Part shown: positions 5,925 through 46,779 of the stretch, in pieces
Layout of the letters: every line of letters starts with the position of its first letter
How positions within the stretch are numbered: the first letter of the stretch is position 1
Assembly (NCBI GenBank): GCA_040219275.1
Contig: JAVJSU010000038.1
Location: forward strand, 167,962-231,961
Reading direction: 5' to 3'
Origin: Aggregatilineales bacterium
GTDB lineage: Bacteria > Chloroflexota > Anaerolineae > Aggregatilineales > Phototrophicaceae
DNA: 64,000 nucleotides
Position numbers and translations under genes: made by a program
The notes under the pieces: model-generated
Seen by the model: the letters and a program-made list of their open reading frames with translations, nothing else
Database searches by the model: none
Told to the model about the DNA's origin: nothing

Positions 5925-5990
5925 GCCTTCGTGCCTTAGAGCCTTTGTATTATGCTTTTTTTCTCTGCGTTTCTCTGCGCTCCCTGCGTC
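5925..5990. repeat. Left half of an AT-rich dispersed repeat copy that is interrupted by the IS110-family element.
   Basis: Sequence gagcctttgtattatgcttttttt-ctctgcgtttctctgcgctccctgcgtc aligns with intact copies at 10276-10345 and 22915-22985 up to ...ctgcgtc. The IS begins immediately after that point. Confidence 0.6.
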
Positions 5991-10275: not shown

Positions 10276-10345
10276 TTCTCACTACAGAAAATTTCTCTGC
10301 GTTTCTTCGCGTTCTCTGCGTCCCTGCGTTATGTTTTTATTTTTG
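10276..10345. repeat. Intact copy of the AT-rich dispersed intergenic repeat (aaatttctctgcgtttcttcgcgttctctgcgtccctgcgttatgtttttatt).
   Basis: Near-identical copies lie at 22915-22985 and, split by the IS, at 5961-5990 plus 7258-7280. Confidence 0.7.
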
Positions 10346-10350
10346 TTGAT

Positions 10351-10872
10351 TTACTTTTCCGTAACCCTACTTTCTGAAATTTGCTCACCAAAACGCGCCC
10401 GCAACATCGGCACCAATCCCCCCGCACGGATAATCGCCTGCACACTCTCCGACAGCGGCGGAATCGCAAACGTCCGTCCCACCGCACGAATCACGCCCGC
10501 GTCATGGTAAATCTCGATGCTGTCGCCCGTTTGAACGAGCGTATAGAGTTCCGGGCAGACGATGGGGTGAATGCCCTGATTGATGCAATTGCGAAAATAC
10601 AAGCCGTTAAAACTCGCCGTGATGATCGCCACCACGCCCTTATATTTGAGCGATGTGACGGCTTGCTCACGGCTACTGCCACAGCCCCAATTGCGCCCGC
10701 CGACGATCACATCGCCCGCCTGTGCCTCCTGCGCGAAACGGGGATCAAGGTCTTCCAGTGCCTTCGATGCGATTTCGTCGATTGTTTTCAGCGTGTAGGT
10801 ATATTTTCCGGGAAAAATCACATCGGTGTTGATGTGATCCCCATACACCCAGACGCGATGTTGTGTCGTCAT
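10351..10872 (-). CDS. Homoaconitase / 3-isopropylmalate dehydratase small subunit (LeuD-like).
   Basis: Aconitase swivel-domain motifs (GDHINTDVIFPGKY ... NWGCGSSREQA). The 173-aa length is like the Thermus HACN small subunit. Confidence 0.8.
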   Translation of the reverse strand: MTTQHRVWVYGDHINTDVIFPGKYTYTLKTIDEIASKALEDLDPRFAQEAQAGDVIVGGRNWGCGSSREQAVTSLKYKGVVAIITASFNGLYFRNCINQGIHPIVCPELYTLVQTGDSIEIYHDAGVIRAVGRTFAIPPLSESVQAIIRAGGLVPMLRARFGEQISESRVTEK

Positions 10873-10896
10873 GGTTGTTGATCTCCAAAATTATAT

Positions 10897-11011
10897 CCCC
10901 TCACCCCCTAAATCCCCCTCTCACACAAGGGCTAGAGGGGGACTTGAAATAGCAATCGCAAGCCACACAGTGAAGCTCCCTTTCTCCTCATTTTGGGAGA
11001 AAGGGCGGGGG
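10897..11011. repeat. Two adjacent GC-rich hairpin repeat units (cccctcaccccctaaatccccctctcacacaagggctagagggggactt and gctccctttctcctcattttgggagaaagggcgggggg).
   Basis: Same family as the copies at 16569-16668, 24857-24902, 26589-26634, 32800-32836 and 34277-34316 (CCCCTC...GAGGGGG stems). Confidence 0.6.
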
Positions 11012-11028
11012 GATAGAGGGCTATTCGT

Positions 11029-16478: not shown

Positions 16479-16568
16479 TTTTGTTTTGACCCTTAGTTCC
16501 ATATCGCCCGTTGGCTCATTAGAGCAGATGGGATAATGCCGTTTACCAATTTCATGGAGTGTTTCAAT

Positions 16569-16668
16569 CCCCCCTCTAAATCTCCCCCCGCTTCGCAAGG
16601 GGAGACTTACAAGCCGAACGGCTCCTCCCCCTCTTTGCGAAGCGGGGAGGGGGCTGGGGGGAGGGGAT
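16569..16668. repeat. Two GC-rich hairpin repeat units in the lysY-lysZ intergenic gap (cccccctctaaatctccccccgcttcgcaaggggagactt and ctcctccccctctttgcgaagcggggagggggctggggggagggga).
   Basis: The first unit is the exact reverse complement of the copy at 34277-34316. The second is about 80% identical to the 45-bp units inside the YfhO-flippase ORF. Confidence 0.7.
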
Positions 16669-16842
16669 TTCCCACTGTCATATTTAATTAAGGAGCATAC
16701 ATGCTGTCCGTTATCGTCCGCGTAATTCGAGTAATTTCGGTTTCAGTGGTCAGTGCGCAATTCTACGCTAACCCATCCCTCAAAACCTATCGCCTATCGT
16801 CGAATCTCTTCCAACTTCTATCTTCTTACCTCAAACTTCCCG

Positions 16843-22914: not shown

Positions 22915-22985
22915 TGAAATTTTTCTCTGCGTTTCTCCGCGTTCATTGCGCTCTCTGCGTTATGTTTTTTCTTGTTTTGTTTCGA
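22915..22985. repeat. Intact copy of the AT-rich dispersed intergenic repeat.
   Basis: aaatttttctctgcgtttctccgcgttcattgcgctctctgcgttatgttttttcttgttttg is about 85% identical to the copy at 10276-10345. Confidence 0.7.
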
Positions 22986-23116
22986 TAAAACACGCAACTT
23001 TCACGCTCGACTGGTCGCACTATTATTTTCCCAACGATAGTTCAACGCTTCACGCCATACACTGGTAAAAGCCATCTGGCATGTGTATAGTGTCGGGCGA
23101 ACTAACACGAGAGGGA

Positions 23117-26100
23117 ATGTTCATGCGTCGCTACACACCGGATTTTGCGCTGATTGTCCTGCTATTCATCTTGCCACTGATTCTCTTCAGCCAGCAGACC
23201 CTCGGCGGGCGCACCCTCTTGCCTACAGAAAACCTCTATCAATATGAACCCTACGCCACCTATCGGGAGGTGGTCAACGCGCCGGATGTCCCGCATAATC
23301 ATTTGCTCTCAGACCTTGTACTCCAGAATATGCAGTGGAAATCCTTCATCCGCGAAAGCATCGACCAGCGAGAAGTCCCGCTCTGGAATCCCCATCAATT
23401 TTCCGGCATTCCCTTCATGGCGGCGGGACAACAATCGACCCTCTATCCCTTAAGCCTCATCTATTACGTCATGCCCCTGACCGCCGCCTATGGCTGGTTC
23501 ACGGTCTTCAATTTATGGCTGGCGGGCATGTTCATGTTGATGCTCATGCGCGGGCTTGGCGTGGGACGGTTTGGGGGGATGGTCGCCGCTGTCACTTATC
23601 AGCTATGTGGATTTTTCATCGCCAGCGCCGTCTTCCCGATGATCCTCGGCGCGGCGGTGTGGATGCCCCTGATTCTCCTGATGATCGAATTTATCATCCA
23701 GCAAAAACCACTTTTCGGCAGACCGTCCAGCCTGCCGTGGATGATCGTTGGCGCGGTTGCCGTCGCCTGTAACATCTTCGCCGGACACGTCGAATTGACC
23801 ATTTATAGCCTGCTCATCGCTGGATTTTACGGCGGCGCACGCTTACTCTGGAACATCTGGCAAAATCGCACCCCCTACACGCCCCACCTCAAAGCCGCTG
23901 GATGGATGCTGGCAATGGTTCTGCTCGGCTTTAGTCTGGGCGCGTTGCAATTTATCCCGCTATTTCAAGTCGCCAACGACAACTGGCGCTCCGAACGTGC
24001 CGACCTCAGCGAGGTGCTCGGTTATGCTCATGCCCCGCGTGATGTTCTGCAATTCGTCATGCCCAACTTTTACGGCAGTCCCGCCGACCATAGCTATTTT
24101 GACATCTTCACGCTGGAAGAAACGCCTGTCACGGTCAACATGGCTGGCGAACCCATCACCCACACCGAATGGGGCATCAAAAATTACGTCGAAGGGGCGC
24201 TCTATCTCGGCATTCTGCCCTTGATTCTGGCGATCTTCGCCTTATTTATGCCCGCACCGATCAACACCGACCCCACCAAACCGCCACCCTTCAAATGGAT
24301 TTTCGCCCTGCTCACGCTGATCTCGCTGACGTTCATGTTCGGCTTGCCCACCTATGCCGCTATTTACTTCCTGCCCGGCATCAATCAACTCAATTCGCCC
24401 TTTCGCTGGGTCTACGGCGTGACCCTCGGCGTGGCGATTTTAGCGGGCTTCGGCGCACATGCCCTGACGGTGTTGGACATCAACGGGCGCAAATGGGCGC
24501 GACGCTTCGGCTACGGCTTAATCGCACTCGCCCTGCTCATTTTTGCTGGATTGCTCGTCAGTCGCCTGATTTTTCCCCAGATCGAATCGACCATCAGCAA
24601 CGCACTATCAAGCCTTGCCGGACAGGGCGGCGAAGTCGCGGCGGATCGGTTCTCCGGCGCACAGATGTTTTTCAGCTATCAATTCGTCAACGCCCTCATC
24701 TTTGGTGTGATGCTTCTGGCTTCTGGCATCATCTTCTGGTTTTTCGGAAGAACACTCAACGAGGAGGGCGACCTAACAGGTCGCCCCTACAAAGGTCGCC
24801 CTCATACCTCGCATAGACTCGTCGGCGCAGGTAAAGGGTCTCTCGAAACCGATGTCGCTCCCCCTCGCCCCTTGTGGGAGAGGGGGCTGGGGGGTGAGGG
24901 GGCTATAATCGCCGTCCAAATCTTCGCCATCGCCCTTATCGCCGTTGACCTCATAATCGCCTCAGCCGAATTCAATCCCGCCTCAGACCCCAATCTGCTG
25001 GATTTCACGCCGCCTGCCGTTGAATGGCTACTTGAGCGTCAAGCGGAAGAAGGCGCGTTCCGCTACACAACGATAGACGCACCCGCGCAGGGGCTGGATA
25101 ATATGCTCCAGCCGAACATGACCATGCGCTACGGGCTGGCGGATATTCGCGGCTACGATAGCATCATCTCGTCGCAATATGTGGAGTACATGCGCTCAAT
25201 TCAAATCCAACCACAGCTTGATTTCAACCGTGTTGCGCCCCTGTATTTAGACCGCATCGAAGCCGACGAAGTGAATTGGTCACGCCTGAATTTGCTCAAT
25301 GTGCGCTACATCGTCACGCATAACGAAATCACCCTCGCGGAAAATTTGACCACCACCAGCGATCCGCGCCGTTTTGCACCCCCGCTCGAACTGGTTTATG
25401 CGGATGAAGCGGTCAATATTTATCGCAACAATGGCGCTTACCCGCGTGCCGCTTTAACAGAACCCTTAGACGGACAAATCCCCGGCTTCGAGACGCAATT
25501 TGTCACTGGTATGCAAGCGACCATCACCCGCGATACCGGACGCGAACGGTTTGTTGATGTCGACATCAACGGAGTCGCCACCCATTGGTTGCTCATCAGT
25601 GAAACCTATGCTGACGGCTGGCGGGCGTACATCCGTCCACAGGGCGCATCTGACGATTACGAAAAACCGCTTGATGTGGTACGCGTGTTCGAGACTCTGC
25701 AAGGCATAGAAATCGCACCCAACGCACTCGCGGAGCGTTATGGTGAGGGTGATGTAGGCGAGGCTGAACAAACCGCCATCATCGACGGACGCTATACCCT
25801 GCGCGTCGTCTATAGCCCGACGAGCTTTCAGGTCGGCTTATTCGGCACGCTCATCAGTGGCGCGTTGATCGTCTTTATGGCGGGCGTGTGGCTGTGGCGT
25901 TTATGGATCGTGCCAGATTCCGGAGAGGGATCAACCACCTCGCGCATCGCCCGCAACAGCCTTGCCCCAATCATCCTCAACCTGTTCAATCGGGGTATTG
26001 ATTTCGTCTTTGCGTTCGTCATGCTCCGCATCCTCGGACCGGAAGACGCAGGCATCTATTATTACGCGGTGATCGTCTTCGTCTGGTTCGATATTTTCAC

Positions 26101-27496
26101 CAATTTCGGCCTGGATGTCTTTCTCATCCGCGAAACCTCCCGCAATCGGGATTCCGGTGGATTTTTCTTCTTCAACACCACCTTTTTACGCCTCGGCTTG
26201 ATGGTCGCCTGCGTCCCGCTTCTGCTCGGATTCTTACTCGTCCGCCAATCCATCATCGACCCCGCGCTGAATCAAGAGGCGTTGCTGGCGATTGGTCTGC
26301 TCTATATCGGGCTTGCGCCGGGGAGTCTCAGCAAGGGGCTGACCTCGCTCTTTTACGCCTTTGAACGCGCCGAATATCCCGCCGCCGTCGCCACCGTCAC
26401 CACCATCAACAAAGCGGTGCTCGGCTTAATCGTCCTCTTGCTCGGTTACGGCATCATCGGTCTGGCAGGGGTGAGCATCGTTGTAAATCTGGTCACGCTC
26501 GGCATCCTCTACGTCGGAGCACGCCAATTTATCAACCCGCGTAGGGGCGACCTGCTAGGTTCGTCAGAACCCGGTAGCCCTTCTGACGATGCTCCCCCTC
26601 GCCCCTTGTGGGAGAGGGGGCTGGGGGGTGAGGGGAAAACAAATATCAAACCCGATACCAAACTAATACGTGGGATGGTGAACCAGAGTTACCCGCTCAT
26701 GCTCAATCATTTTCTGGCGACCATTTTCTTCCAGATCGACGTGGTGATTCTGGAAGCCATGCGCGGCGCGGTCATCGTCGGTAAATACAGCGTCGCCTAT
26801 CGCTGGCTACTGGCACTGAACGTCATCCCTGCCTTTTTTACACAGGCACTTCTACCTGTCATGTCCCGTCAAGCCAACGAAGATCGGGTCGCCCTGCGCC
26901 GAACCTACACACTCGGCATCAAGCTGATGGTCGCGCTAGCCTTCCCGCTGGCAGTCGCCTTCACCTTTCTCGCCCAACCGCTCACCCTCTTACTCGGCGG
27001 CAACCAATTTTTACCAGAAGGCGCAATCGCCCTGCAAATCATGATCTGGAGCATCCCCCTCGGCTGGATCAATAGCCTGACGCAATATCTGCTCATCGCG
27101 GTAGATTTACAACGGCGCATCACACGGGCGTTCGCCGTCGCCGTGACCTTCAACATCGTTACGAATCTCATTTTCATCCCGCGCTTTGGCTATCAGGCGG
27201 CGGCAATCACCACCATTTTGTCTGAACTGGTCTTGCTCATCCCCTTTGCCATCCTCACACACGGCGCGTTAAACGGCGTGCGCTGGCTCGATCTCATCTG
27301 GCGGCAAGCCGTTGCGGCGGGGGTGATGTTCGCCGTGATGCTGGTCGGCTGGTCGAGCGTTCCCGTTCTTGCCCTCATTATTGGGAGTACGCTCTATCCG
27401 GTGATTCTGCTGGCGCTCCGTCCCTTCAATGCAGACGAACTCGCCCGCCTCACCCCGCTCATCCCCACACGCTTCAAATGGCTGGTTGGGAATTAG
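23117..27496 (+). CDS. Fusion membrane protein: N-terminal YfhO-family membrane glycosyltransferase-like domain (about aa 1-900) plus a C-terminal MOP/Wzx-type polysaccharide flippase domain (about aa 950-1471).
   Basis: The N terminus has the YfhO-like multi-TM topology (MRRYTPDFALIVLLFILPL...NPHQFSGIPF). From about 25930 (IARNSLAPIILNLF...ILGPEDAGIYYYAV) it has the typical start of Wzx/polysaccharide-biosynthesis flippases, with about 12-14 TM helices. It is one continuous frame with no stop codon. Confidence 0.7.
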   Translation: MFMRRYTPDFALIVLLFILPLILFSQQTLGGRTLLPTENLYQYEPYATYREVVNAPDVPHNHLLSDLVLQNMQWKSFIRESIDQREVPLWNPHQFSGIPFMAAGQQSTLYPLSLIYYVMPLTAAYGWFTVFNLWLAGMFMLMLMRGLGVGRFGGMVAAVTYQLCGFFIASAVFPMILGAAVWMPLILLMIEFIIQQKPLFGRPSSLPWMIVGAVAVACNIFAGHVELTIYSLLIAGFYGGARLLWNIWQNRTPYTPHLKAAGWMLAMVLLGFSLGALQFIPLFQVANDNWRSERADLSEVLGYAHAPRDVLQFVMPNFYGSPADHSYFDIFTLEETPVTVNMAGEPITHTEWGIKNYVEGALYLGILPLILAIFALFMPAPINTDPTKPPPFKWIFALLTLISLTFMFGLPTYAAIYFLPGINQLNSPFRWVYGVTLGVAILAGFGAHALTVLDINGRKWARRFGYGLIALALLIFAGLLVSRLIFPQIESTISNALSSLAGQGGEVAADRFSGAQMFFSYQFVNALIFGVMLLASGIIFWFFGRTLNEEGDLTGRPYKGRPHTSHRLVGAGKGSLETDVAPPRPLWERGLGGEGAIIAVQIFAIALIAVDLIIASAEFNPASDPNLLDFTPPAVEWLLERQAEEGAFRYTTIDAPAQGLDNMLQPNMTMRYGLADIRGYDSIISSQYVEYMRSIQIQPQLDFNRVAPLYLDRIEADEVNWSRLNLLNVRYIVTHNEITLAENLTTTSDPRRFAPPLELVYADEAVNIYRNNGAYPRAALTEPLDGQIPGFETQFVTGMQATITRDTGRERFVDVDINGVATHWLLISETYADGWRAYIRPQGASDDYEKPLDVVRVFETLQGIEIAPNALAERYGEGDVGEAEQTAIIDGRYTLRVVYSPTSFQVGLFGTLISGALIVFMAGVWLWRLWIVPDSGEGSTTSRIARNSLAPIILNLFNRGIDFVFAFVMLRILGPEDAGIYYYAVIVFVWFDIFTNFGLDVFLIRETSRNRDSGGFFFFNTTFLRLGLMVACVPLLLGFLLVRQSIIDPALNQEALLAIGLLYIGLAPGSLSKGLTSLFYAFERAEYPAAVATVTTINKAVLGLIVLLLGYGIIGLAGVSIVVNLVTLGILYVGARQFINPRRGDLLGSSEPGSPSDDAPPRPLWERGLGGEGKTNIKPDTKLIRGMVNQSYPLMLNHFLATIFFQIDVVILEAMRGAVIVGKYSVAYRWLLALNVIPAFFTQALLPVMSRQANEDRVALRRTYTLGIKLMVALAFPLAVAFTFLAQPLTLLLGGNQFLPEGAIALQIMIWSIPLGWINSLTQYLLIAVDLQRRITRAFAVAVTFNIVTNLIFIPRFGYQAAAITTILSELVLLIPFAILTHGALNGVRWLDLIWRQAVAAGVMFAVMLVGWSSVPVLALIIGSTLYPVILLALRPFNADELARLTPLIPTRFKWLVGN
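24857..24902 (+). repeat. A 45-bp GC-rich hairpin repeat unit inserted in-frame in the YfhO-domain region (translated APPRPLWERGLGGEG).
   Basis: gctccccctcgccccttgtgggagagggggctggggggtgagggg is identical to the unit at 26589-26634 and related to intergenic copies. Confidence 0.8.
26589..26634 (+). repeat. Second in-frame copy of the 45-bp GC-rich repeat, in the flippase-domain region (translated APPRPLWERGLGGEG).
   Basis: A 45/45-nt match to 24857-24902. Both copies are preceded by a GGCGACCT-N-AGGTCG mini-palindrome about 70-90 nt upstream. Confidence 0.8.
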
Positions 27497-27617: not shown

Positions 27618-28490
27618 ATGAAAAAGCACTTTCTCTTGATTGTTTTGTTGAGCGGTTTGTTTATCTTTTCCCAGAATTTTGTTTTCGCGCAACTATTCAA
27701 TCCACAGGATTATGTCGTTGACATTTTTATTACCGATGATGGCGGTAACTGTGGAGAAATCCCATCGCCTGTATATCAATTTAGCCACACACTCCTTCAC
27801 GTTGTCGTTGATATAAACAGGTTACAGCAAGATTTTAATATAGCCGTTGTTACACTAAACGTTGATGATGCAAATAATACGTTTATCGGTTGGGCTGGCT
27901 ATGTTATTCCTGAAAACAATCCGCCACAGACAAGCGACTTGCGTGGCAGAATTCATGGAACGGAAGCGTTCGACTTTGCATCTGCTCATGCGCCCACAGC
28001 TAGACCATGGTCTATAACGTTGAATTTCATAGATAACGTTACTTTTGAAGAATATTCTTCTGATCCTATTGTCATTGATCCCGCCGAGTATCTTGCTTCC
28101 TGTGCGCGTCTGCCTTATATCGGCATAGACGGAAACATCTTACCCATCAACGAAGGCAACAGCGAAAATGAAGTCGCCGTCTATAACGCCAAGGACGACA
28201 ACGGCGACCCGACGCTCCACATTTACGACATCAACGACGAGGGCGATGGCACACTCGCACTCGAAATCACACAGGGCATCATCGCGCCCTATATCGACAA
28301 TCCGCCCGCCGAAAACACCGCACTCATGACCAGCGACAACGGCAAAGTGACGCTTTACGTGCTCGATACAGGCGAGCTACAAATCAACAGTGGACCCGAC
28401 GCTGAGGGCAAAATTCACGTCCTCATCTTCGACGGTATCCCACCCACCAACATCTACGGCTATGTGATTGATCCCATAACTACGGAATAA
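27618..28490 (+). CDS. Secreted hypothetical protein, paralog 1 of a tandem three-gene family (variable N-terminal domain + conserved C-terminal domain).
   Basis: Signal peptide MKKHFLLIVLLSGLFIFSQNFVFA. The C-terminal roughly 115 aa (LPYIG...INEGNSENEVAVYNA...LHIYDIN...TLALEITQ...DNPPAENTALMTSDNGKVTLY...GELQINSGPDAEGKIHVLIFD...PPTNIYGYVIDP) is shared with the next two ORFs. Confidence 0.7.
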   Translation: MKKHFLLIVLLSGLFIFSQNFVFAQLFNPQDYVVDIFITDDGGNCGEIPSPVYQFSHTLLHVVVDINRLQQDFNIAVVTLNVDDANNTFIGWAGYVIPENNPPQTSDLRGRIHGTEAFDFASAHAPTARPWSITLNFIDNVTFEEYSSDPIVIDPAEYLASCARLPYIGIDGNILPINEGNSENEVAVYNAKDDNGDPTLHIYDINDEGDGTLALEITQGIIAPYIDNPPAENTALMTSDNGKVTLYVLDTGELQINSGPDAEGKIHVLIFDGIPPTNIYGYVIDPITTE

Positions 28491-28500
28491 AGGAATTTCC

Positions 28501-29343
28501 ATGAAAAAATATCTGATTTTGATCGCACTGTTAATCGTTTTGTCTGTGACAACAATAACAGCATATGCCATCACGCCTCCGACTTCAGTGACAATAGTAG
28601 GCTTTAATGACGTTAGTAGGGATTGTGGACAGACACCATATACTTGGATTCCCGAACAACAAACAGAAGGCATGATGATTTATTTACAAGTTGCGACAAT
28701 CCAGATGCATGAGCCTTTCGATTATCATAGTATCTTTATTAGGGACCGTAATGGTGTTCTTATAGGACGTTTTAGATCTCATAGTGCACGTGGACATATT
28801 CACCACATTCCCATCAATGGATATGAACTGGATACGGGAGCACCAACTGCGCTTCCATGGATTATTTCTATCTATGACCATCCTGACAATTTGGAAGAAG
28901 ACCTTGAAATTTTCATTCCAATGGGAGAATTTGTGTTTGATCCATCAACTATCAATTCTGCCTGCGAACGTCTCCCGTATATCGACACCCAGAATATCGA
29001 ACCTATCAATTATAACGTAAACGAAATTGCCGCCTACAACGCCACCGACGACAACGGCGAACCGGCTCTGCACATCTACGACATCAACACCGAAGGCGAC
29101 GGCACACTCGCGCTCGAAATCACACAGGACATCATCGCACCCTACATCGACAATCCGCCCGCCGAAAACACCGCGCTCATGACCAGCGACAACGGCAAAG
29201 TGACACTCTACATGCTCGACACGGGCGAATTGCAGATCAACAGCGGACCCGACGCAGAGGGCAAAATTCACGTCCTCATCTTTGATGCCATCCCACCCAC
29301 CAACATCTACGGCTACGTCATCGACCCGCCGTTATTTCCGTAA
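28501..29343 (+). CDS. Secreted hypothetical protein, paralog 2.
   Basis: Signal peptide MKKYLILIALLIVLSVTTITAYA. The C-terminal domain is about 90% nucleotide-identical to paralogs 1 and 3. The N-terminal half is divergent. Confidence 0.7.
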   Translation: MKKYLILIALLIVLSVTTITAYAITPPTSVTIVGFNDVSRDCGQTPYTWIPEQQTEGMMIYLQVATIQMHEPFDYHSIFIRDRNGVLIGRFRSHSARGHIHHIPINGYELDTGAPTALPWIISIYDHPDNLEEDLEIFIPMGEFVFDPSTINSACERLPYIDTQNIEPINYNVNEIAAYNATDDNGEPALHIYDINTEGDGTLALEITQDIIAPYIDNPPAENTALMTSDNGKVTLYMLDTGELQINSGPDAEGKIHVLIFDAIPPTNIYGYVIDPPLFP

Positions 29344-29356
29344 ACAAATCACCATC

Positions 29357-29391
29357 GGGGAGCGCGTTACTGAGAACGCTCCCCTTATTCC
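29357..29391 (+). terminator. Intrinsic terminator hairpin (ggggagcg-N-cgctcccc + ttatt) after paralog 2.
   Basis: An 8-bp GC stem 14 nt after the stop, followed by a T-rich tract. Confidence 0.5.
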
Positions 29392-29489
29392 TTAACTTAA
29401 ATCAAACCGAAAATTCAGAAAATTTAACATATTTTGCAAAGAATAGTCTGTAAAATAGTTAAGTAAGATTTTCTAGCATAGGAAAAATT

Positions 29490-30422
29490 ATGAATAAACG
29501 CATTCTTCTACTTGAGACACTCATTTTCACAATACTCACCATTTCCAATTCCATAGTCATGGCTAATTCAATTGACATCAGAAACATCTTTGTCAGAGAA
29601 TCCAATCCGGGTGGAAATTGTGGTACATTGCCCATAATAGTTGGTCCCGGAGTAGCTCCACCTTATATAGGCGATAGTTCTGCGACGACCACACACTTAG
29701 GTTTTGATATTGAAGTTGCGTCATTTTTGGCGAGTTTTTCTGGTGAAATGCCCAGAATTTACTTTGAAATACACGATGCGAATAACGTCTTTCTCGGTGG
29801 ATTTGGTACAAGTCTAAGCGGGGAAACATCGCCTTATCGCTCCGTTGAAGTACTATTAGGAGCAATAACTCTGGGAACAGGATCACCAACTCATATAGGG
29901 TATCCGCCAACTGCGCGTCCTTGGACGATTACCGTGATATTTGGTAATCAGATAATCGGAAGCAGTGGTTCTTCTGAAATCATAGAAGAACCACCATTAT
30001 ATTATACGTTTGATCCCGCTGACTACAACGAAAATTGCCGGGTACTTCCCTACTTAGGTGCAGGCAACAGCTTACCCATCAACGAAGGCAATAGCGAAAA
30101 CGAAGTCGCCGCCTACAACGCCACCGACAAAAATGGCGAACCCGCCCTGCACATCTACGACATCAACGACGACGGCAACGGCACACTCGCCCTCGAAATC
30201 ACACAGGACATTATCGCGCCTTACATCGACAATCCGCCGAGCGAAAACACCGCGCTCATGACCAGCGAAAACGGCAAAGTCACGCTCTACATCCTCGACA
30301 CGGGCGAGCTACAAATCAACAGCGGACCCGACGCAGAGGGCAAGACTCACGTCCTCATTTTCGACGGCATCCCACCGACCAACATTTACGGCTACGTCAT
30401 CGACCCGCCGTTATTTCCCTAA
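29490..30422 (+). CDS. Secreted hypothetical protein, paralog 3.
   Basis: Signal peptide MNKRILLLETLIFTILTISNSIVMA. The conserved C-terminal domain and the two conserved Cys positions (GGNCG...; NENCRVLPY) are shared with paralogs 1 and 2. Confidence 0.7.
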   Translation: MNKRILLLETLIFTILTISNSIVMANSIDIRNIFVRESNPGGNCGTLPIIVGPGVAPPYIGDSSATTTHLGFDIEVASFLASFSGEMPRIYFEIHDANNVFLGGFGTSLSGETSPYRSVEVLLGAITLGTGSPTHIGYPPTARPWTITVIFGNQIIGSSGSSEIIEEPPLYYTFDPADYNENCRVLPYLGAGNSLPINEGNSENEVAAYNATDKNGEPALHIYDINDDGNGTLALEITQDIIAPYIDNPPSENTALMTSENGKVTLYILDTGELQINSGPDAEGKTHVLIFDGIPPTNIYGYVIDPPLFP

Positions 30423-30470: not shown

Positions 30471-30626
30471 GCCCGATCAAACCGGATATGCACCGCACCC
30501 ACTCCCCCAATCATTAGGGGACTGCGGGGTTTTCAATTCTCCTTATAATTAAACTATCAACAATTATTTTTTACTGACCACTGATAATTGTTTACTGAAA
30601 ACTATTAACTCTCGAAAGGACGGGCT

Positions 30627-31178: not shown

Positions 31179-31256
31179 CCCGAATCAGGTTTATGTCAGA
31201 CGAAACCTGATTACTGACAACTGATTACTGATAACTACTTACAAGGATCAACAAAC

Positions 31257-32788: not shown

Positions 32789-32799
32789 CGCAGGAAGAA

Positions 32800-32836
32800 G
32801 TCTCAGCTTGCGAAGCGGGGGAGATTTAGAGGAGGA
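32800..32836. repeat. GC-rich hairpin repeat unit (gtctcagcttgcgaagcgggggagatttagaggagga).
   Basis: Matches 34277-34316 and the reverse complement of 16569-16608. Confidence 0.65.
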
Positions 32837-32883
32837 TAAACCATCAAAATATTGTGTGTTCACTACCAGCAAATGAGCCACCC

Positions 32884-34092: not shown

Positions 34093-34276
34093 ATCGCGTT
34101 TGTGAAATAGTGAACAAGACGCATAGCATAGCCTACTTCACGACTTTTAGAAACTCAGAGGATAGGCTGACTGCTCAGATGGTGCTTGTGAAGAAATAAA
34201 ATAGGTTACGACAAAATTGAGGTGTTTGCTATCTCTTATGTCCCCAACCAACCTACATCGCAAATGAGGAAGATTT

Positions 34277-34316
34277 AAGTCTCCCCTTGCGAAGCGGGGG
34301 GAGATTTAGAGGGGGG
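34277..34316. repeat. GC-rich hairpin repeat unit (aagtctccccttgcgaagcggggggagatttagagggggg).
   Basis: Exact reverse complement of 16569-16608. Confidence 0.7.
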
Positions 34317-34659
34317 ATTTGCTTGAAATATCTTAGAACGCCAATTAGTACACCTATCTTTGAATCTTCTAACCGCACACACAGAACATCCGTGCTATAC
34401 TATCAAGTCAAGTTCAACTCTCACACTTGGAATGACGCGATGGGTAATGCACATATTCGACATACAAAAAATCGATAGCAAAAACCATCACCGCCAGAAG
34501 TTGGCGGAAAAAAATAGTGTCTTTTACTGGCAGAAAATCACAAACTTCCCCCGTGAGTGTGCGGGTTTTACTGCCATAAATGCCAATAATCGTGGCGCAA
34601 CCGCCATATAAAAAACGTGGGGCGCAGTCCTCAAAGCCACTGCACCCCACGCAAATCAA

Positions 34660-41100: not shown

Positions 41101-42129
41101 ATGCCTTTTAGCCGTCTTGTGTTTCGCCTCGCACTATTCGTTTTTGTCCCGATACTTCTGGTTATGGTGGTCTGGTCACTCCTACCGTTTCGGGGCGATG
41201 TTTTGATATTTAGTGCTTATCTGGAAGATCACTATAGTGTGTTTACGCTCGATATTGATCGCCACATCATCCACACCGTCACACCATTTAACGGCAATGT
41301 CTATAATCCGAGATGGTCGCCGGATGGAGAGCAGATCGCCTTCGTTTATGGGCGCGATATTTATGTGAGCGATGCAAGCGGGCGTTATGCGTATAATCTG
41401 ACGAATACACGGGAAATCATTACCAATACGCTACCCGTCTGGTCACCGGATGGCGCGCACATCGCGTTTGTCTCTGATCGTGTGGGTCAGCAAAATCTTT
41501 TCGTTATGGATCGAAATGGCGAAAATGTGCGTAACCTCACGCCTGAACTGGAAGTAAGGAATGCGCCGATATGGTCACCGGATAGCACACAATTATTGCT
41601 CAACGTCAACGATGGCACTGAATCGCAGATGGTCAGGGTCACCTTTGAAACTGGCGAAATTGCCGGGTTTGAAGGCGCGGGCGAAGTCGTTGGTGGCATT
41701 GCATGGTCACCAGATGGCTCACAACTGGCATATCTGCGCTGGAATGATCGCACATTTCAGCTGGTGGTTGAGGACATAAGTACGGGAGACACGCAAATAA
41801 TTCACGACTCCATCAACACGACATCCCTGCCACATTGGTCGCCAGACAGCACAAAACTCACCTATGTCATCTCCATTCAAAATGGACAGCGCATCGTTTA
41901 TGTGCGGGATTTACGCGACAATGACGATAAAGAATTGTTCGGATTCGGCTTGACGCGGAACATCATCATAGAATCGCCCCGCTGGTCACCGGATGGTGAA
42001 CGGATCGCCTTCCTCTCCAACCATGAATCCTTAACGGCACTCTACACCATTTCCACTCGTGGCGGCGGTCTGGAACGCATCTCCCCCGCAAACTTGTCGC
42101 TGGTCTCTGATCCTCAATGGCGACCATGA
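41101..42129 (+). CDS. TolB-like PD40 beta-propeller repeat protein with an N-terminal TM anchor.
   Basis: Six WSPDG/WSPDS PD40 repeats and an N-terminal hydrophobic helix. Confidence 0.8.
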   Translation: MPFSRLVFRLALFVFVPILLVMVVWSLLPFRGDVLIFSAYLEDHYSVFTLDIDRHIIHTVTPFNGNVYNPRWSPDGEQIAFVYGRDIYVSDASGRYAYNLTNTREIITNTLPVWSPDGAHIAFVSDRVGQQNLFVMDRNGENVRNLTPELEVRNAPIWSPDSTQLLLNVNDGTESQMVRVTFETGEIAGFEGAGEVVGGIAWSPDGSQLAYLRWNDRTFQLVVEDISTGDTQIIHDSINTTSLPHWSPDSTKLTYVISIQNGQRIVYVRDLRDNDDKELFGFGLTRNIIIESPRWSPDGERIAFLSNHESLTALYTISTRGGGLERISPANLSLVSDPQWRP

Positions 42130-46613: not shown

Positions 46614-46779
46614 GTGGGATAGGCGACCAAAATTTAGGAAATTACTAACAGGTAGGCGACCTGGCATATCGCCCCTACGCATTGCTTGTTCATCGAGATC
46701 ACGAAAATCCACTTAATGTATGATGACTTTTTCTAATCTGACAACTAATTACTGAAAACTGTGAACTGAAATAAAAACC

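What the first reader, a model, noticed from the sequence alone, without database searches (positions are those of the whole stretch)
24857..26634. GC-rich hairpin repeat inserted twice IN FRAME into a membrane-protein gene
The 45-bp unit gctccccctcgccccttgtgggagagggggctggggggtgagggg occurs at 24857 and 26589 inside the 1471-aa YfhO-flippase ORF. Both copies are in the same reading frame and translate to APPRPLWERGLGGEG within predicted loop regions. Both are preceded by a similar GGCGACCT..AGGTCG mini-palindrome and a GDL.G motif, so a larger composite of about 100-150 bp may have inserted. Related units occur intergenically at 10897-11011, 16569-16668, 32800-32836 and 34277-34316, some as exact reverse complements of each other. 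In-frame, length-multiple-of-three insertion of selfish palindromic repeats into coding sequence is known from Rickettsia RPEs. It would be notable in this lineage, and it means part of the protein sequence is repeat-encoded.
Basis: seen in the sequence. Interest (0 to 1): 0.7.

Follow-up and report, generated by a model that had tools for sequence, protein, structure and literature searches.

The report
Hairpin repeat inserted in-frame twice
Two identical copies of a 45-base GC-rich hairpin repeat sit in frame in two floppy loops of a large membrane-protein gene, and the same tiny element turns up almost unchanged in many bacterial phyla, even inside essential genes.

Summary
Both copies are in phase 0 of a 1471-aa YfhO-like/MOP-flippase fusion ORF and encode APPRPLWERGLGGEG.

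All 41 aligned orthologues lack both peptides, including the closest (83% aa identity in the alignment, syntenic). Both copies lie in variable-length loops. AlphaFold places copy 2 in the only disordered internal loop of the flippase. A second, independently assembled MAG carries both copies.

The "larger 100-150 bp composite" idea fails. The neighbouring GGCGACCT palindromes are a separate GTAG-type REP family.

The unit is not lineage-specific. Its 22-nt 3' part plus the matching hairpin arm occurs near-identically in Chloroflexota, Cyanobacteria, Planctomycetota, Armatimonadota, Proteobacteria and others. It also occurs in frame inside a Mur ligase, ArgS, DnaE, UvrC and DabA. In orthologues of this gene, all 19 in-gene copies map to five loops only, in both orientations.

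In-frame survival is explained by 3n length, five of six stop-free frames and tolerant loops.

A Herpetosiphon filled/empty site shows a doublet with an 8-bp target duplication. Six of seven DUF559 (Vsr-like) endonuclease genes examined are bracketed by inverted units, which makes DUF559 a candidate mobiliser.

The phenomenon is known (RPE, intragenic REPs). This element family appears undescribed.

The parts
23081..27496 (+). Host gene: a 1471-aa fusion of a YfhO-like polytopic N-terminal part and a MOP/Wzx-type flippase. The NCBI start would be 23123, giving 1457 aa.
   Evidence: ORF. Pfam Polysacc_synt scores 106.6 bits (cut-off 28.2); YfhO scores 24.6 bits, below its 28.5 cut-off. All 120 listed homologues (of 1391 with E<=1e-10) are about 1175-1580 aa and carry the flippase domains; most also carry PF09586, so the fusion is conserved. 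The fold of aa 940-1471 matches MurJ/WzxE.
24857..24901 (+). Unit copy 1. It has an 11-bp imperfect hairpin (CTCCCCCTCGCCC/GGGAGAGGGGG), a 5-nt loop and a 15-nt G-rich tail CTGGGGGGTGAGGGG. It is translated as APPRPLWERGLGGEG (aa 593-607) and abuts the next transmembrane segment.
   Evidence: (R1 score 70 bits). Absent from all aligned orthologues. The only two differences from the sister MAG lie at 24850 and 24867.
26591..26635 (+). Unit copy 2, 100% identical to copy 1, in the same orientation and phase (aa 1171-1185). It lies in the loop between the two halves of the flippase (helices 6 and 7 by analogy with MurJ).
   Evidence: R1 score 73 bits. The low-pLDDT coil at sub-residues 211-253 corresponds to aa 1150-1192. 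The whole ~87-nt stretch is missing in L001.
24766..24801 (.). GTAG-type REP-like palindrome GGGCGACCTAACAGGTCGCCCCTAC followed by AAAGGTCGCCC. It encodes GDLTGRPYKGRP in loop 1. This is an older, separate repeat family.
   Evidence: (I20). Conserved in the closest orthologue, which reads GDLAGRPYKGHP.
26541..26563 (.). Second GTAG-type element, GTAGGGGCGACCTGCTAGGTTCG, an imperfect palindrome. It encodes RRGDLLGS in loop 2.
   Evidence: (I20, I21). Absent in L001.
26561..26589 (.). Small 9-bp-stem hairpin TCGTCAGAA...TTCTGACGA, lying between the GTAG element and unit copy 2.
   Evidence: Read from the sequence and paired in the fold of 26535-26644. Absent in L001.
10894..11022 (.). Intergenic inverted doublet of the same family (10894-10945 on the - strand, 10974-11022 on the + strand), G-tails pointing outward, REPIN-like. 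It lies between two - strand genes.
   Evidence: R1 scores 31.6 and 25.5 bits. Fold z-score -4.2. Gene context.
16566..16669 (.). Intergenic doublet made of a subfamily-B unit (16566-16609, - strand) and a family unit (16623-16669, + strand). It lies between divergent genes.
   Evidence: I1, I7; z-score -5.3; 38.9 bits.
32798..32838 (+). Solo subfamily-B unit (GCGAAGC loop, ATTTAGAGG tail) between convergent genes.
   Evidence: (I6). Not hit by R1.
34276..34319 (+). Solo subfamily-B unit, the exact reverse complement of 16566-16609.
   Evidence: I1; z-score -4.0.
46655..46680 (.). Third GTAG-type palindrome, GTAGGCGACCTGGCATATCGCCCCTAC; its coding context was not checked.
   Evidence: (I21).

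Best explanation
The two 45-nt segments are copies of a short, non-autonomous repeat. The repeat is a GC-rich hairpin followed by a G-tract tail, and it occurs as solo units and as inverted doublets, like REP/REPIN or MITE elements. Both copies landed inside the coding sequence of a conserved YfhO-like/MOP-flippase fusion gene and were kept.

They survive for three reasons.
1. The unit is 3 x 15 nt long.
2. Five of its six reading frames contain no stop codon.
3. Both copies lie in poorly conserved, disordered and probably cytoplasmic loops, where an extra Pro/Gly/Arg/Glu-rich 15-mer is tolerated.

The copies are read through and translated. Nothing indicates that they were selected for a function in this protein.

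Shown here:
- both are lineage-specific insertions;
- both are in loops;
- the family is dispersed and found across phyla;
- the same loops are occupied repeatedly in orthologues;
- a related doublet in Herpetosiphon has an 8-bp target-site duplication.

Inferred:
- selection filters out insertions elsewhere in the gene, rather than the element targeting the loops;
- the perfect identity of the two copies reflects either recent insertion or gene conversion between them;
- the mobilising enzyme may be a DUF559 (Vsr-like) endonuclease carried between two inverted units.
For: Insertion, not ancestral sequence:
- None of the 41 aligned orthologues has either peptide.
- The syntenic closest orthologue, L001 (77% nt identity), lacks about 87 nt at loop 2. 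At loop 1 it lacks the unit plus about 55 nt.

Loop location:
- Hydropathy places both copies in hydrophilic loops.
- The AlphaFold model of aa 940-1471 has mean pLDDT 87, and its only internal coil covers aa 1150-1192.
- The fold matches MurJ/WzxE.

Real sequence: a second MAG carries both copies.

Dispersed family in the window: five R1 hits, including two intergenic doublets that fold 4-5 sd better than shuffles.

Cross-phylum spread:
- At least 115 stretches contain the exact 22-mer.
- 104 of 121 hits carry the complementary CCCCCTC arm, which the search pattern did not impose.
- The unit is 78% GC in a 51.6% GC window.

In-frame copies in genes confirmed by Pfam elsewhere:
- DabA, with a doublet;
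- ArgS, with four R1 hits;
- UvrC;
- DnaE;
- a Mur ligase, with four repeat-type peptides;
- a rhamnosidase;
- a TIR-FGE protein.

Permissive-loop filter:
- The 19 in-gene R1 hits fall in 14 of 84 orthologue loci (two of which are identical copies).
- All keep the frame open.
- All map to five loops only: about aa 261-270, 389-400, 462-472, 557-612 and 1148-1185.
- They occur in both orientations and several frames.

Frames: five of six are open.

Mobility: H. giganteus L077 has a ~172-nt doublet flanked by CATTCATG on both sides. The orthologous site in Herpetosiphon sp. NSE202 has a single CATTCATG and no element.

Precedent: intragenic, in-frame REPs and RPEs are documented, including genes hit twice (PMC3733652; PMC3184786).
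Against: - No target-site duplication or conserved flanking motif is visible at the two solo copies. The insertion chemistry for solo units is therefore not shown.
- No near-identical 'empty site' genome exists for this gene. The nearest relative lacking the units is only 77% identical in DNA, so exact insertion boundaries are unknown.
- Two copies 100% identical within one gene, while other window copies score only 25-39 bits against the family model, could reflect gene conversion rather than two recent insertions.
- The only two differences from the sister MAG over 24 kb cluster at copy 1. This fits gene conversion or local hypermutation.
- Translation of the units has not been demonstrated.
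- No covariation support for the hairpin could be obtained, because the 3' arm was fixed by the search pattern.
- The cytoplasmic side of the loops rests on transmembrane parity and charge, not on a solved topology.
Confidence: 0.8

Rival explanations
1. The units are selected cis-elements, not passengers. An mRNA or DNA hairpin, or a G-quadruplex, placed at domain boundaries could pause transcription or translation and so help membrane insertion or folding. Alternatively, the peptides could be functional linkers.
For: The same loops are occupied again and again in orthologues. The sense strand carries a canonical G4 motif, GGGAGAGGGGGCTGGGGGGTGAGGGG. Both copies in this gene share orientation and phase.
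Against: Orientation and frame differ among orthologues: 14 of 19 in-gene copies are antisense. The closest orthologue, and 70 of the 84 other orthologue loci searched with R1, have no strong in-gene hit. The same unit sits in unrelated genes and in intergenic DNA across phyla.
Confidence: 0.1
2. The identity of the two segments comes from intragenic duplication or gene conversion of ordinary loop sequence, not from a mobile repeat.
For: The copies are 100% identical and only 1734 nt apart. The cluster of differences at copy 1 in the sister MAG suggests conversion activity.
Against: Identity stops exactly at the 45-nt borders. The same unit is found in intergenic DNA of the window and in many phyla. 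Orthologues lack it. Conversion may homogenise the copies, but it cannot explain their origin.
Confidence: 0.04
3. The units are not translated. They are removed by ribosomal bypassing or RNA processing, like the mitochondrial 'byp' GC-cluster elements or the T4 gene 60 gap (own knowledge).
For: The units are short GC-rich hairpin inserts in coding sequence, which is superficially similar.
Against: All intragenic copies examined are stop-free and preserve the downstream frame. That holds for 19 of 19 copies in orthologues and for the Pfam-confirmed genes in other phyla. Bypassed elements would not need this.
Confidence: 0.03
4. Assembly or binning artefact: a repeat collapsed or was mis-joined inside the gene.
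For: The source is a MAG, and repeats are classic trouble spots. The two differences from the sister MAG lie at copy 1.
Against: Two separate assemblies (GCA_040220435.1 and the window's own) give the same structure. The 1734 nt between the copies are collinear with all orthologues. A 45-nt repeat is shorter than the usual assembly k-mers (own knowledge). Isolate genomes (Herpetosiphon, Pseudanabaena) carry the same unit.
Confidence: 0.02

Closest known systems
Rickettsia palindromic elements (RPE; Ogata et al. 2000, as cited in PMC3184786 and PMC3733652)
   Same: [quoted passage not shown] They are translated and tolerated in surface or loop regions, and some genes are hit more than once.
   Different: RPE-1-type elements are about 105-146 bp and confined to Rickettsia. 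The unit here is 45 nt, has a hairpin plus an unpaired G-tract tail, and is near-identical across many phyla. No sequence relationship was tested or is expected.
GTAG-/CGTC-tagged REPs and intragenic REPs (Di Nocera et al. 2013, PMC3733652); REPIN-RAYT systems (Bertels and Rainey 2011, PMC3116915)
   Same: These are 20-40-nt GC-rich stem-loops. They are mostly intergenic, often arranged as inverted dimers, and sometimes lie entirely inside ORFs, encoding 20-30 aa. Many sit in DNA replication or repair genes, and some genes are hit twice. The neighbouring GGCGACCT...CCCCTAC palindromes in both loops fit the GTAG type.
   Different: The 45-nt unit has no GTAG or CGTC tag, and it carries a 15-nt G-rich tail that is not part of the palindrome. 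No RAYT was seen next to any copy. Instead, DUF559 genes sit between inverted units. REPIN/RAYT systems are described as mostly vertically inherited and lineage-specific, whereas this unit is shared across phyla.
Bacterial MITEs (for example Nezha in Anabaena/Nostoc, Correia in Neisseria; reviewed in PMC3184786)
   Same: These are non-autonomous elements with inverted-repeat architecture and strong predicted hairpins. Filled/empty sites and target-site duplications are known, and ORF fusions occur.
   Different: Classic MITEs are 100-400 bp with terminal inverted repeats matching a DDE insertion sequence. Here the conserved module is 45 nt. Only the Herpetosiphon doublet showed a target-site duplication (8 bp); the solo units in this gene show none.
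Vsr-like homing endonucleases (I-Bth0305I family; PMC3239194, PMC2677866)
   Same: These are small Vsr/PD-(D/E)XK-fold nucleases acting as selfish mobile genes. DUF559 is grouped with Vsr in PMC3424549.
   Different: The known members sit in group I introns or inteins and home into a specific allele. Here, free-standing DUF559 genes lie between two inverted copies of a dispersed hairpin repeat. No activity is known for them.

Membership tests
REP / REPIN-RAYT | Short GC-rich imperfect palindrome present in many dispersed, mostly intergenic copies | tested here: met
   The window has five R1 hits plus three subfamily-B units. Intergenic copies lie between unidirectional, convergent or divergent genes. 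The pattern loci hold many more copies.
REP / REPIN-RAYT | Inverted doublets (REPINs) that fold into a long hairpin | tested here: met
   10894-11022 (z-score -4.2) and 16566-16669 (z-score -5.3). Many (-,+) pairs with short spacers (about 10-65 nt) occur in other genomes.
REP / REPIN-RAYT | Conserved GTAG (or CGTC) tetranucleotide tag at one end (PMC3733652) | tested here: not met
   The 45-nt unit and the 95 distinct cross-phylum copies show no GTAG or CGTC at a fixed end. The separate GGCGACCT palindromes do carry GTAG...CTAC.
REP / REPIN-RAYT | A cognate RAYT (IS200/IS605-type Y1 transposase) flanked by the repeats | not tested
   Only 64 kb of this genome is available and its ORFs were not all scanned. 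Clustering of neighbouring ORFs across 115 loci gave only ABC ATPases, response regulators and SDRs. DUF559 genes, not RAYTs, were found between inverted units.
MITE | Target-site duplication and filled/empty sites | tested here: inconclusive
   Met for a ~172-nt doublet in Herpetosiphon, which has the 8-bp duplication CATTCATG and an empty orthologous site. Not seen at the two solo units in the gene.
Rickettsia palindromic elements | In-frame insertion into ORFs, with the insert absent from orthologues | tested here: met
   This is a resemblance in behaviour only. Membership of the RPE sequence families was not tested and is not claimed.
MOP/Wzx flippase (host gene, C-terminal half) | Polysacc_synt profile above the curated cut-off and a MurJ/Wzx-like fold | tested here: met
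   PF01943 scores 106.6 bits against a 28.2 cut-off. The top Foldseek PDB hits are MurJ and WzxE, with probability 1.00 and TM-score 0.6-0.7.
YfhO (host gene, N-terminal half) | PF09586 above the gathering score | tested here: inconclusive
   The score is 24.6 bits against a 28.5 cut-off, covering only aa 72-295. Many orthologues carry a precomputed PF09586 hit.

The most novel reading that the evidence does not exclude
The 45-nt unit may be the terminal repeat of an undescribed class of miniature mobile elements that spans phyla. In this reading, the autonomous form is a 110-150-aa DUF559 (Vsr-like, PD-(D/E)XK) endonuclease gene lying between two inverted units. The abundant doublets and solo units are its non-autonomous derivatives. 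Being short, stop-poor and often 3n long, they colonise coding sequence in frame, even in essential genes (Mur ligase, ArgS, DnaE, UvrC). They would then be a general source of loop insertions in bacterial proteins.

Evidence so far:
- Six of seven DUF559 loci examined are bracketed by inverted hairpin+G-tail units whose sequence varies with the lineage.
- About 10 of 27 DUF559 homologues have repeat-encoded termini.
- The arrangement matches ordinary doublets, with the gene in the spacer.

An alternative is not excluded: DUF559 could be a homing gene that merely targets doublets.
Probability: 0.3. Interest if true: 0.85.

Novelty: new variant of a known kind. Interest (0 to 1): 0.66.

Why it matters
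In-frame colonisation of genes by palindromic repeats is usually treated as a Rickettsia curiosity, or as a minor feature of some REP families. This result extends it in three ways.

- One 45-nt element, kept almost letter-for-letter across distant phyla and at 78% GC regardless of host composition, repeatedly writes 15-aa Pro/Gly-rich segments into proteins. These include essential enzymes.
- Within one conserved membrane-protein family, it marks exactly the five loops that tolerate insertions.
- That gives a natural insertion-tolerance map for a YfhO/Wzx fusion, and a source of annotation noise ("PLWERGLGGEG"-type peptides).

If the DUF559 link holds, it would also give a testable candidate for a new mobilisation system, and a function for a very common domain of unknown function.

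Tried and rejected
- **Larger composite insert.** Local alignment of the 117 nt upstream and 100 nt downstream of the two copies found only GGGCGACCT in common (40 of 500 shuffles scored as well). The downstream flanks showed nothing. Rejected.
- **Rfam.** No family matched at gathering thresholds in the whole window. Only chance-level miRNA-like hits appeared at E<=10 around copy 1.
- **Covariation.** The count on 31 cross-phylum units was uninformative, because the 3' arm was fixed by the search pattern. The stem was 93% paired with no double changes.
- **Literature string searches.** Searches for the DNA unit, its sub-strings and the five encoded peptides found no prokaryotic paper.
- **Protein-universe census.** A 73-aa concatenate of the five frames returned only 113 candidates and 7 hits, which was uninformative.
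- **Shared neighbouring gene.** All-vs-all clustering of 1912 ORFs from the 115 loci gave only common families.
- **Larger cross-phylum 'master' element.** All-vs-all blastn of the loci found only lineage-specific composites, for example ~200-nt repeats in Herpetosiphon.
- **nhmmer census.** The sequence-only census of orthologue genes was less sensitive than the covariance model and added nothing.
- **Archaeal occurrence.** The 'Methanoregulaceae' contig is 74% identical over 2 kb to a Fimbriimonadaceae contig and is probably mis-binned. Not accepted.
- **Stop-to-stop ORF spanning.** This overestimated intragenic copies. Several of the 25 candidates are merely upstream of genes such as HrcA, Dus and HisF.

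Full report
**1. Observation**

The 45-mer GCTCCCCCTCGCCCCTTGTGGGAGAGGGGGCTGGGGGGTGAGGGG occurs exactly twice in the window, at 24857-24901 and 26591-26635, both on the + strand. No match occurred in any of 100 shuffles.

Both copies lie in ORF 23081..27496 (1471 aa). Their offsets from the start are 1776 and 3510 nt, so both are in phase 0 and both read APPRPLWERGLGGEG (aa 593-607 and 1171-1185).

The unit is 78% GC in a 51.6% GC window. It contains a canonical G-quadruplex motif. Five of its six frames are open; only frame +2 has a TGA.

As RNA or DNA it folds into an 11-bp imperfect hairpin with a 5-nt loop, followed by a 15-nt G-rich tail. The single unit folds only modestly better than shuffles (z-scores -1.8 and -2.5). 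The intergenic doublets are clearly better (z-scores -4.2 and -5.3).

**2. The host gene**

- Pfam gives Polysacc_synt (aa 957-1263, 106.6 bits) and a sub-threshold YfhO match (aa 72-295, 24.6 bits against a 28.5 cut-off).
- All 120 listed homologues (of 1391 with E<=1e-10) have a similar length (about 1175-1580 aa) and carry the flippase domains; most also carry PF09586. They are named Anaerolineae or Chloroflexota where a source gives a name.
- The identical protein is annotated in an Aggregatilineales MAG.
- An AlphaFold model of aa 940-1471 has mean pLDDT 87 and pTM 0.84.
- Its best PDB matches are MurJ, WzxE and MATE transporters.

**3. Are the segments insertions?**

- In a 42-sequence alignment, both peptides fall in variable-length gaps, and none of the 41 orthologues has them.
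- The closest orthologue is P0002 (83% aa identity in the alignment). Its contig L001 has the same Zn-ribbon / rhomboid / small ORF / fusion-gene order and is 77% identical in DNA.
  - At loop 2 it lacks about 87 nt, including the unit.
  - At loop 1 it retains the GGGCGACCT...CCCCTAC palindrome (GDLAGRPYKGHP) but lacks the unit and about 55 nt upstream of it.
- Beyond the 45 nt, the two sites share nothing significant except GGGCGACCT. The "100-150 bp composite" is therefore not supported.
- The mini-palindromes are a second family of the GTAG-tagged REP type described by Di Nocera et al. (PMC3733652).

**4. Loop location**

- Hydropathy puts copy 1 at the end of a 51-aa hydrophilic loop (aa 557-607) between two hydrophobic segments.
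- Copy 2 lies in the 1136-1205 loop.
- In the structure model, the only internal low-confidence coil is sub-residues 211-253, which corresponds to aa 1150-1192 and contains copy 2.

**5. Not an artefact**

- A second MAG (GCA_040220435.1, L201) encodes a protein with 1456 of 1457 identical residues and both units.
- Its DNA is 99.992% identical to window 13123-37496.
- The only two differences in 24,374 nt are at 24850 (7 nt upstream of copy 1) and at 24867 inside copy 1.
- The 24867 change is G>T (R596L). It restores the T-A pair of the stem and matches the cross-phylum consensus.
- This cluster suggests gene conversion or local hypermutation at the repeat, or consensus noise. I could not distinguish these.

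**6. The family in the window**

- A covariance model (R1) built from 31 same-length units finds the two genic copies (73 and 70 bits). It also finds 16623-16669 (39 bits), 10894-10945 on the - strand (32 bits) and 10974-11022 (25.5 bits).
- The units with a GCGAAGC loop and ATTTAGAGGGGGG tail (16566-16609, 32798-32838, 34276-34319) are not hit. They have the same architecture but are a sister subfamily.
- Intergenic copies lie between unidirectional, divergent or convergent genes. Two of them form inverted doublets with tails pointing outward.

**7. The unit is not lineage-specific**

- The hits come from these groups:
  - Chloroflexota: Herpetosiphon, Oscillochloris, Anaerolineae, Dehalococcoidia;
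  - Cyanobacteria: Oscillatoria, Pseudanabaena, Phormidium, Prochlorothrix;
  - Melainabacteria;
  - Planctomycetota;
  - Armatimonadota;
  - Gemmatimonadota;
  - Bacteroidota;
  - Gamma-, Beta- and Alphaproteobacteria;
  - Spirochaetes;
  - Sumerlaeota.
- In 104 of 121 hits, the complementary arm CCCCCTC lies within 36 nt upstream, although the search did not require it.
- Loops and inner stems vary by lineage.
- The single "archaeal" contig is 74% identical over 2 kb to a Fimbriimonadaceae contig and is probably mis-binned.
- No Rfam family matches, and no paper in the searchable library contains the sequence or its peptides.

**8. In-frame copies elsewhere**

Of 122 hits, 25 are spanned by long open frames. 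Pfam confirms real intragenic cases:
- DabA, with a doublet inside the domain;
- arginyl-tRNA synthetase, with four R1 hits;
- UvrC, inside the RNase-H endonuclease domain;
- DnaE;
- a rhamnosidase linker;
- a TIR-FGE protein;
- a Mur ligase carrying four repeat-type peptides.

Several other candidates merely lie upstream of genes, so the true genic fraction is nearer 10%.

**9. The same loops are hit repeatedly**

- DNA of five chosen orthologues and 80 metagenomic orthologues (84 were searched with R1, two of them identical copies) gave 19 in-gene R1 hits (E<=0.01) in 14 loci.
- All keep the frame open.
- In query coordinates they map only to five loops:

| Loop (aa, query coordinates) | In-gene hits |
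|---|---|
| ~261-270 | 2 |
| ~389-400 | 3 |
| ~462-472 | 2 |
| ~557-612 | 6 |
| ~1148-1185 | 6 |

- Fourteen are antisense and five are sense, in several frames, so these are independent events.
- All five loops appear to be cytoplasmic. This is inferred by counting hydrophobic segments back from the flippase N-terminus (cytoplasmic in MurJ/Wzx, own knowledge) and from charge balance. The alternating loops, such as 296-371 and 627-917, are acidic.
- The simplest reading is a selection filter: only insertions in these loops survive. Targeting of pre-existing repeats is not excluded, because GTAG palindromes share the loops.

**10. Mobility**

- H. giganteus (L077) has a ~172-nt doublet consisting of two inverted units with tails outward and imperfect outer inverted repeats. 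It is flanked by CATTCATG on both sides.
- The orthologous site in Herpetosiphon sp. NSE202 is 93% identical around it, has one CATTCATG and no element.
- This is a textbook filled/empty pair with an 8-bp target duplication.
- The two solo units in the window gene show no duplication.

**11. A candidate partner**

- In a Melainabacteria contig (L031), a 129-aa DUF559 endonuclease gene lies between two 47-nt inverted units that are 98% complementary. Its C-terminus is encoded by one of the units.
- Homologues were found by protein similarity alone, and seven loci were inspected in DNA.

| Locus | Flanking arrangement |
|---|---|
| L031, L065, L203, L204 | Bracketed by R1-positive inverted units, 360-490 nt apart |
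| L206, L207 | Bracketed by AT-richer units of the same hairpin+G-tail design (37 nt at 92% and 55 nt at 87% complementarity) |
| L202 | Doublet upstream only |

- About 10 of 27 homologues read have repeat-encoded termini.
- Ordinary doublets have the same (-,+) arrangement with short spacers of about 10-65 nt. The DUF559 gene therefore occupies the spacer.
- No further DUF559 gene occurs in 924 kb of orthologue loci. This fits a low-copy partner, but the sample is small.
- DUF559 is grouped with Vsr (PMC3424549), and Vsr-like homing endonucleases are known (PMC3239194, PMC2677866).
- I found no report of DUF559 genes between dispersed hairpin repeats.
- DUF559 might mobilise the repeats, or it might merely home into doublets. 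Which is true is open.

**12. Comparison and verdict**

- Behaviourally this is the RPE / intragenic-REP phenomenon. Di Nocera et al. already list REPs inside ORFs in several phyla, often in replication and repair genes and sometimes twice per gene. Delihas reviews in-frame repeat fusions.
- The unit fails the GTAG/CGTC tag test, and no RAYT was seen, so I do not file it as a RAYT-type REP.
- It is a new variant of a known kind. The 45-nt hairpin-plus-G-tail element appears to be undescribed, is conserved across phyla, and has a possible novel partner gene.
- For this gene specifically, the finding is a confirmed pair of passenger insertions in tolerant loops.

Noticed in passing
window 24850 and 24867 (versus L201 11728 and 11745): These are the only two differences in 24,374 nt between the window and the sister MAG. 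Both fall within 18 nt at unit copy 1. The G>T change at 24867 turns the stem's G.A mismatch into a T-A pair, which is the cross-phylum consensus. Possible causes are short-tract gene conversion, hairpin-driven mutation or consensus noise.
   Followed up: partly
L031:4076-4533; L065:2290-2841; L203:1371-1930; L204:1301-1913; L206:1381-1963; L207:1387-2023: Small DUF559 (Vsr-like) endonuclease genes are bracketed by inverted copies of the local hairpin+G-tail repeat, 360-530 nt apart. This holds in six of seven loci from different lineages. About 10 of 27 homologues have repeat-encoded protein termini.
   Followed up: partly
L077:5353-5520 versus L105 (reverse strand, about 4440): This is a clean filled/empty site. 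A ~172-nt inverted doublet in Herpetosiphon giganteus is flanked by the 8-bp direct repeat CATTCATG. The related Herpetosiphon sp. NSE202 has a single CATTCATG and no element.
   Followed up: yes
L024:407-2140 (+); L025:2885-5581 (+): A Mur ligase (Fimbriimonadaceae MAG) and an arginyl-tRNA synthetase each carry about four in-frame repeat units. In the ArgS gene, three are in tandem at a period of about 95 nt.
   Followed up: partly
L040 (contig labelled Methanoregulaceae archaeon MAG): The contig is 74% identical over 2 kb to a Fimbriimonadaceae contig (L017). It is probably a mis-binned bacterial contig, so the repeat's presence in Archaea is not established.
   Followed up: partly
L093:5420-6650: In a Pirellulaceae MAG, four copies of the unit's 3' part recur at a 386-nt period, each preceded by the same ~30 nt. 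This is a tandem array of a longer unit.
   Followed up: no
window 27618-30422: Three tandem paralogous genes (290, 280 and 310 aa) have signal-peptide-like N-termini. Their ~300-nt 3' ends are 87-88% identical (family D1), encoding '...HIYDIN..GDGTLALEITQ.IIAPYIDNPP.ENTALMTS.NGKVTLY.LDTGELQINSGPDAEGK.HVLIFD.IPPTNIYGYVIDP'.
   Followed up: no
window 5958-5988, 10290-10351, 22920-22982: Another dispersed ~62-nt repeat, rich in TCTCTGCG / TTCTCCGCG motifs. One copy lies about 100 nt upstream of the fusion gene's start.
   Followed up: no
window 30560-30610, 31200-31243, 46738-46767: Clusters of the motif TTACTGA(A/C)AACT(G/A), repeated at offsets of about 14-21 nt. They were not placed relative to genes.
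   Followed up: no
window 41308-42017: The repeated motif TGGTCACCGGATGG recurs at a 126-132-nt spacing (families D5 and D6). It was not examined further and may be an intragenic protein repeat.
   Followed up: no
L118, L119, L120 (orthologue genes): Some orthologues carry units at up to five positions in the gene, plus one at the extreme 3' end (L120:7292-7337 overlaps the stop codon; a weak hit, E=0.14, at L119:7470-7518 touches the gene end). GTAG...CTAC perfect palindromes also sit in loop 2, for example GTAGGGGCGCACGGCGGTGCGCCCCTAC in L118.
   Followed up: partly
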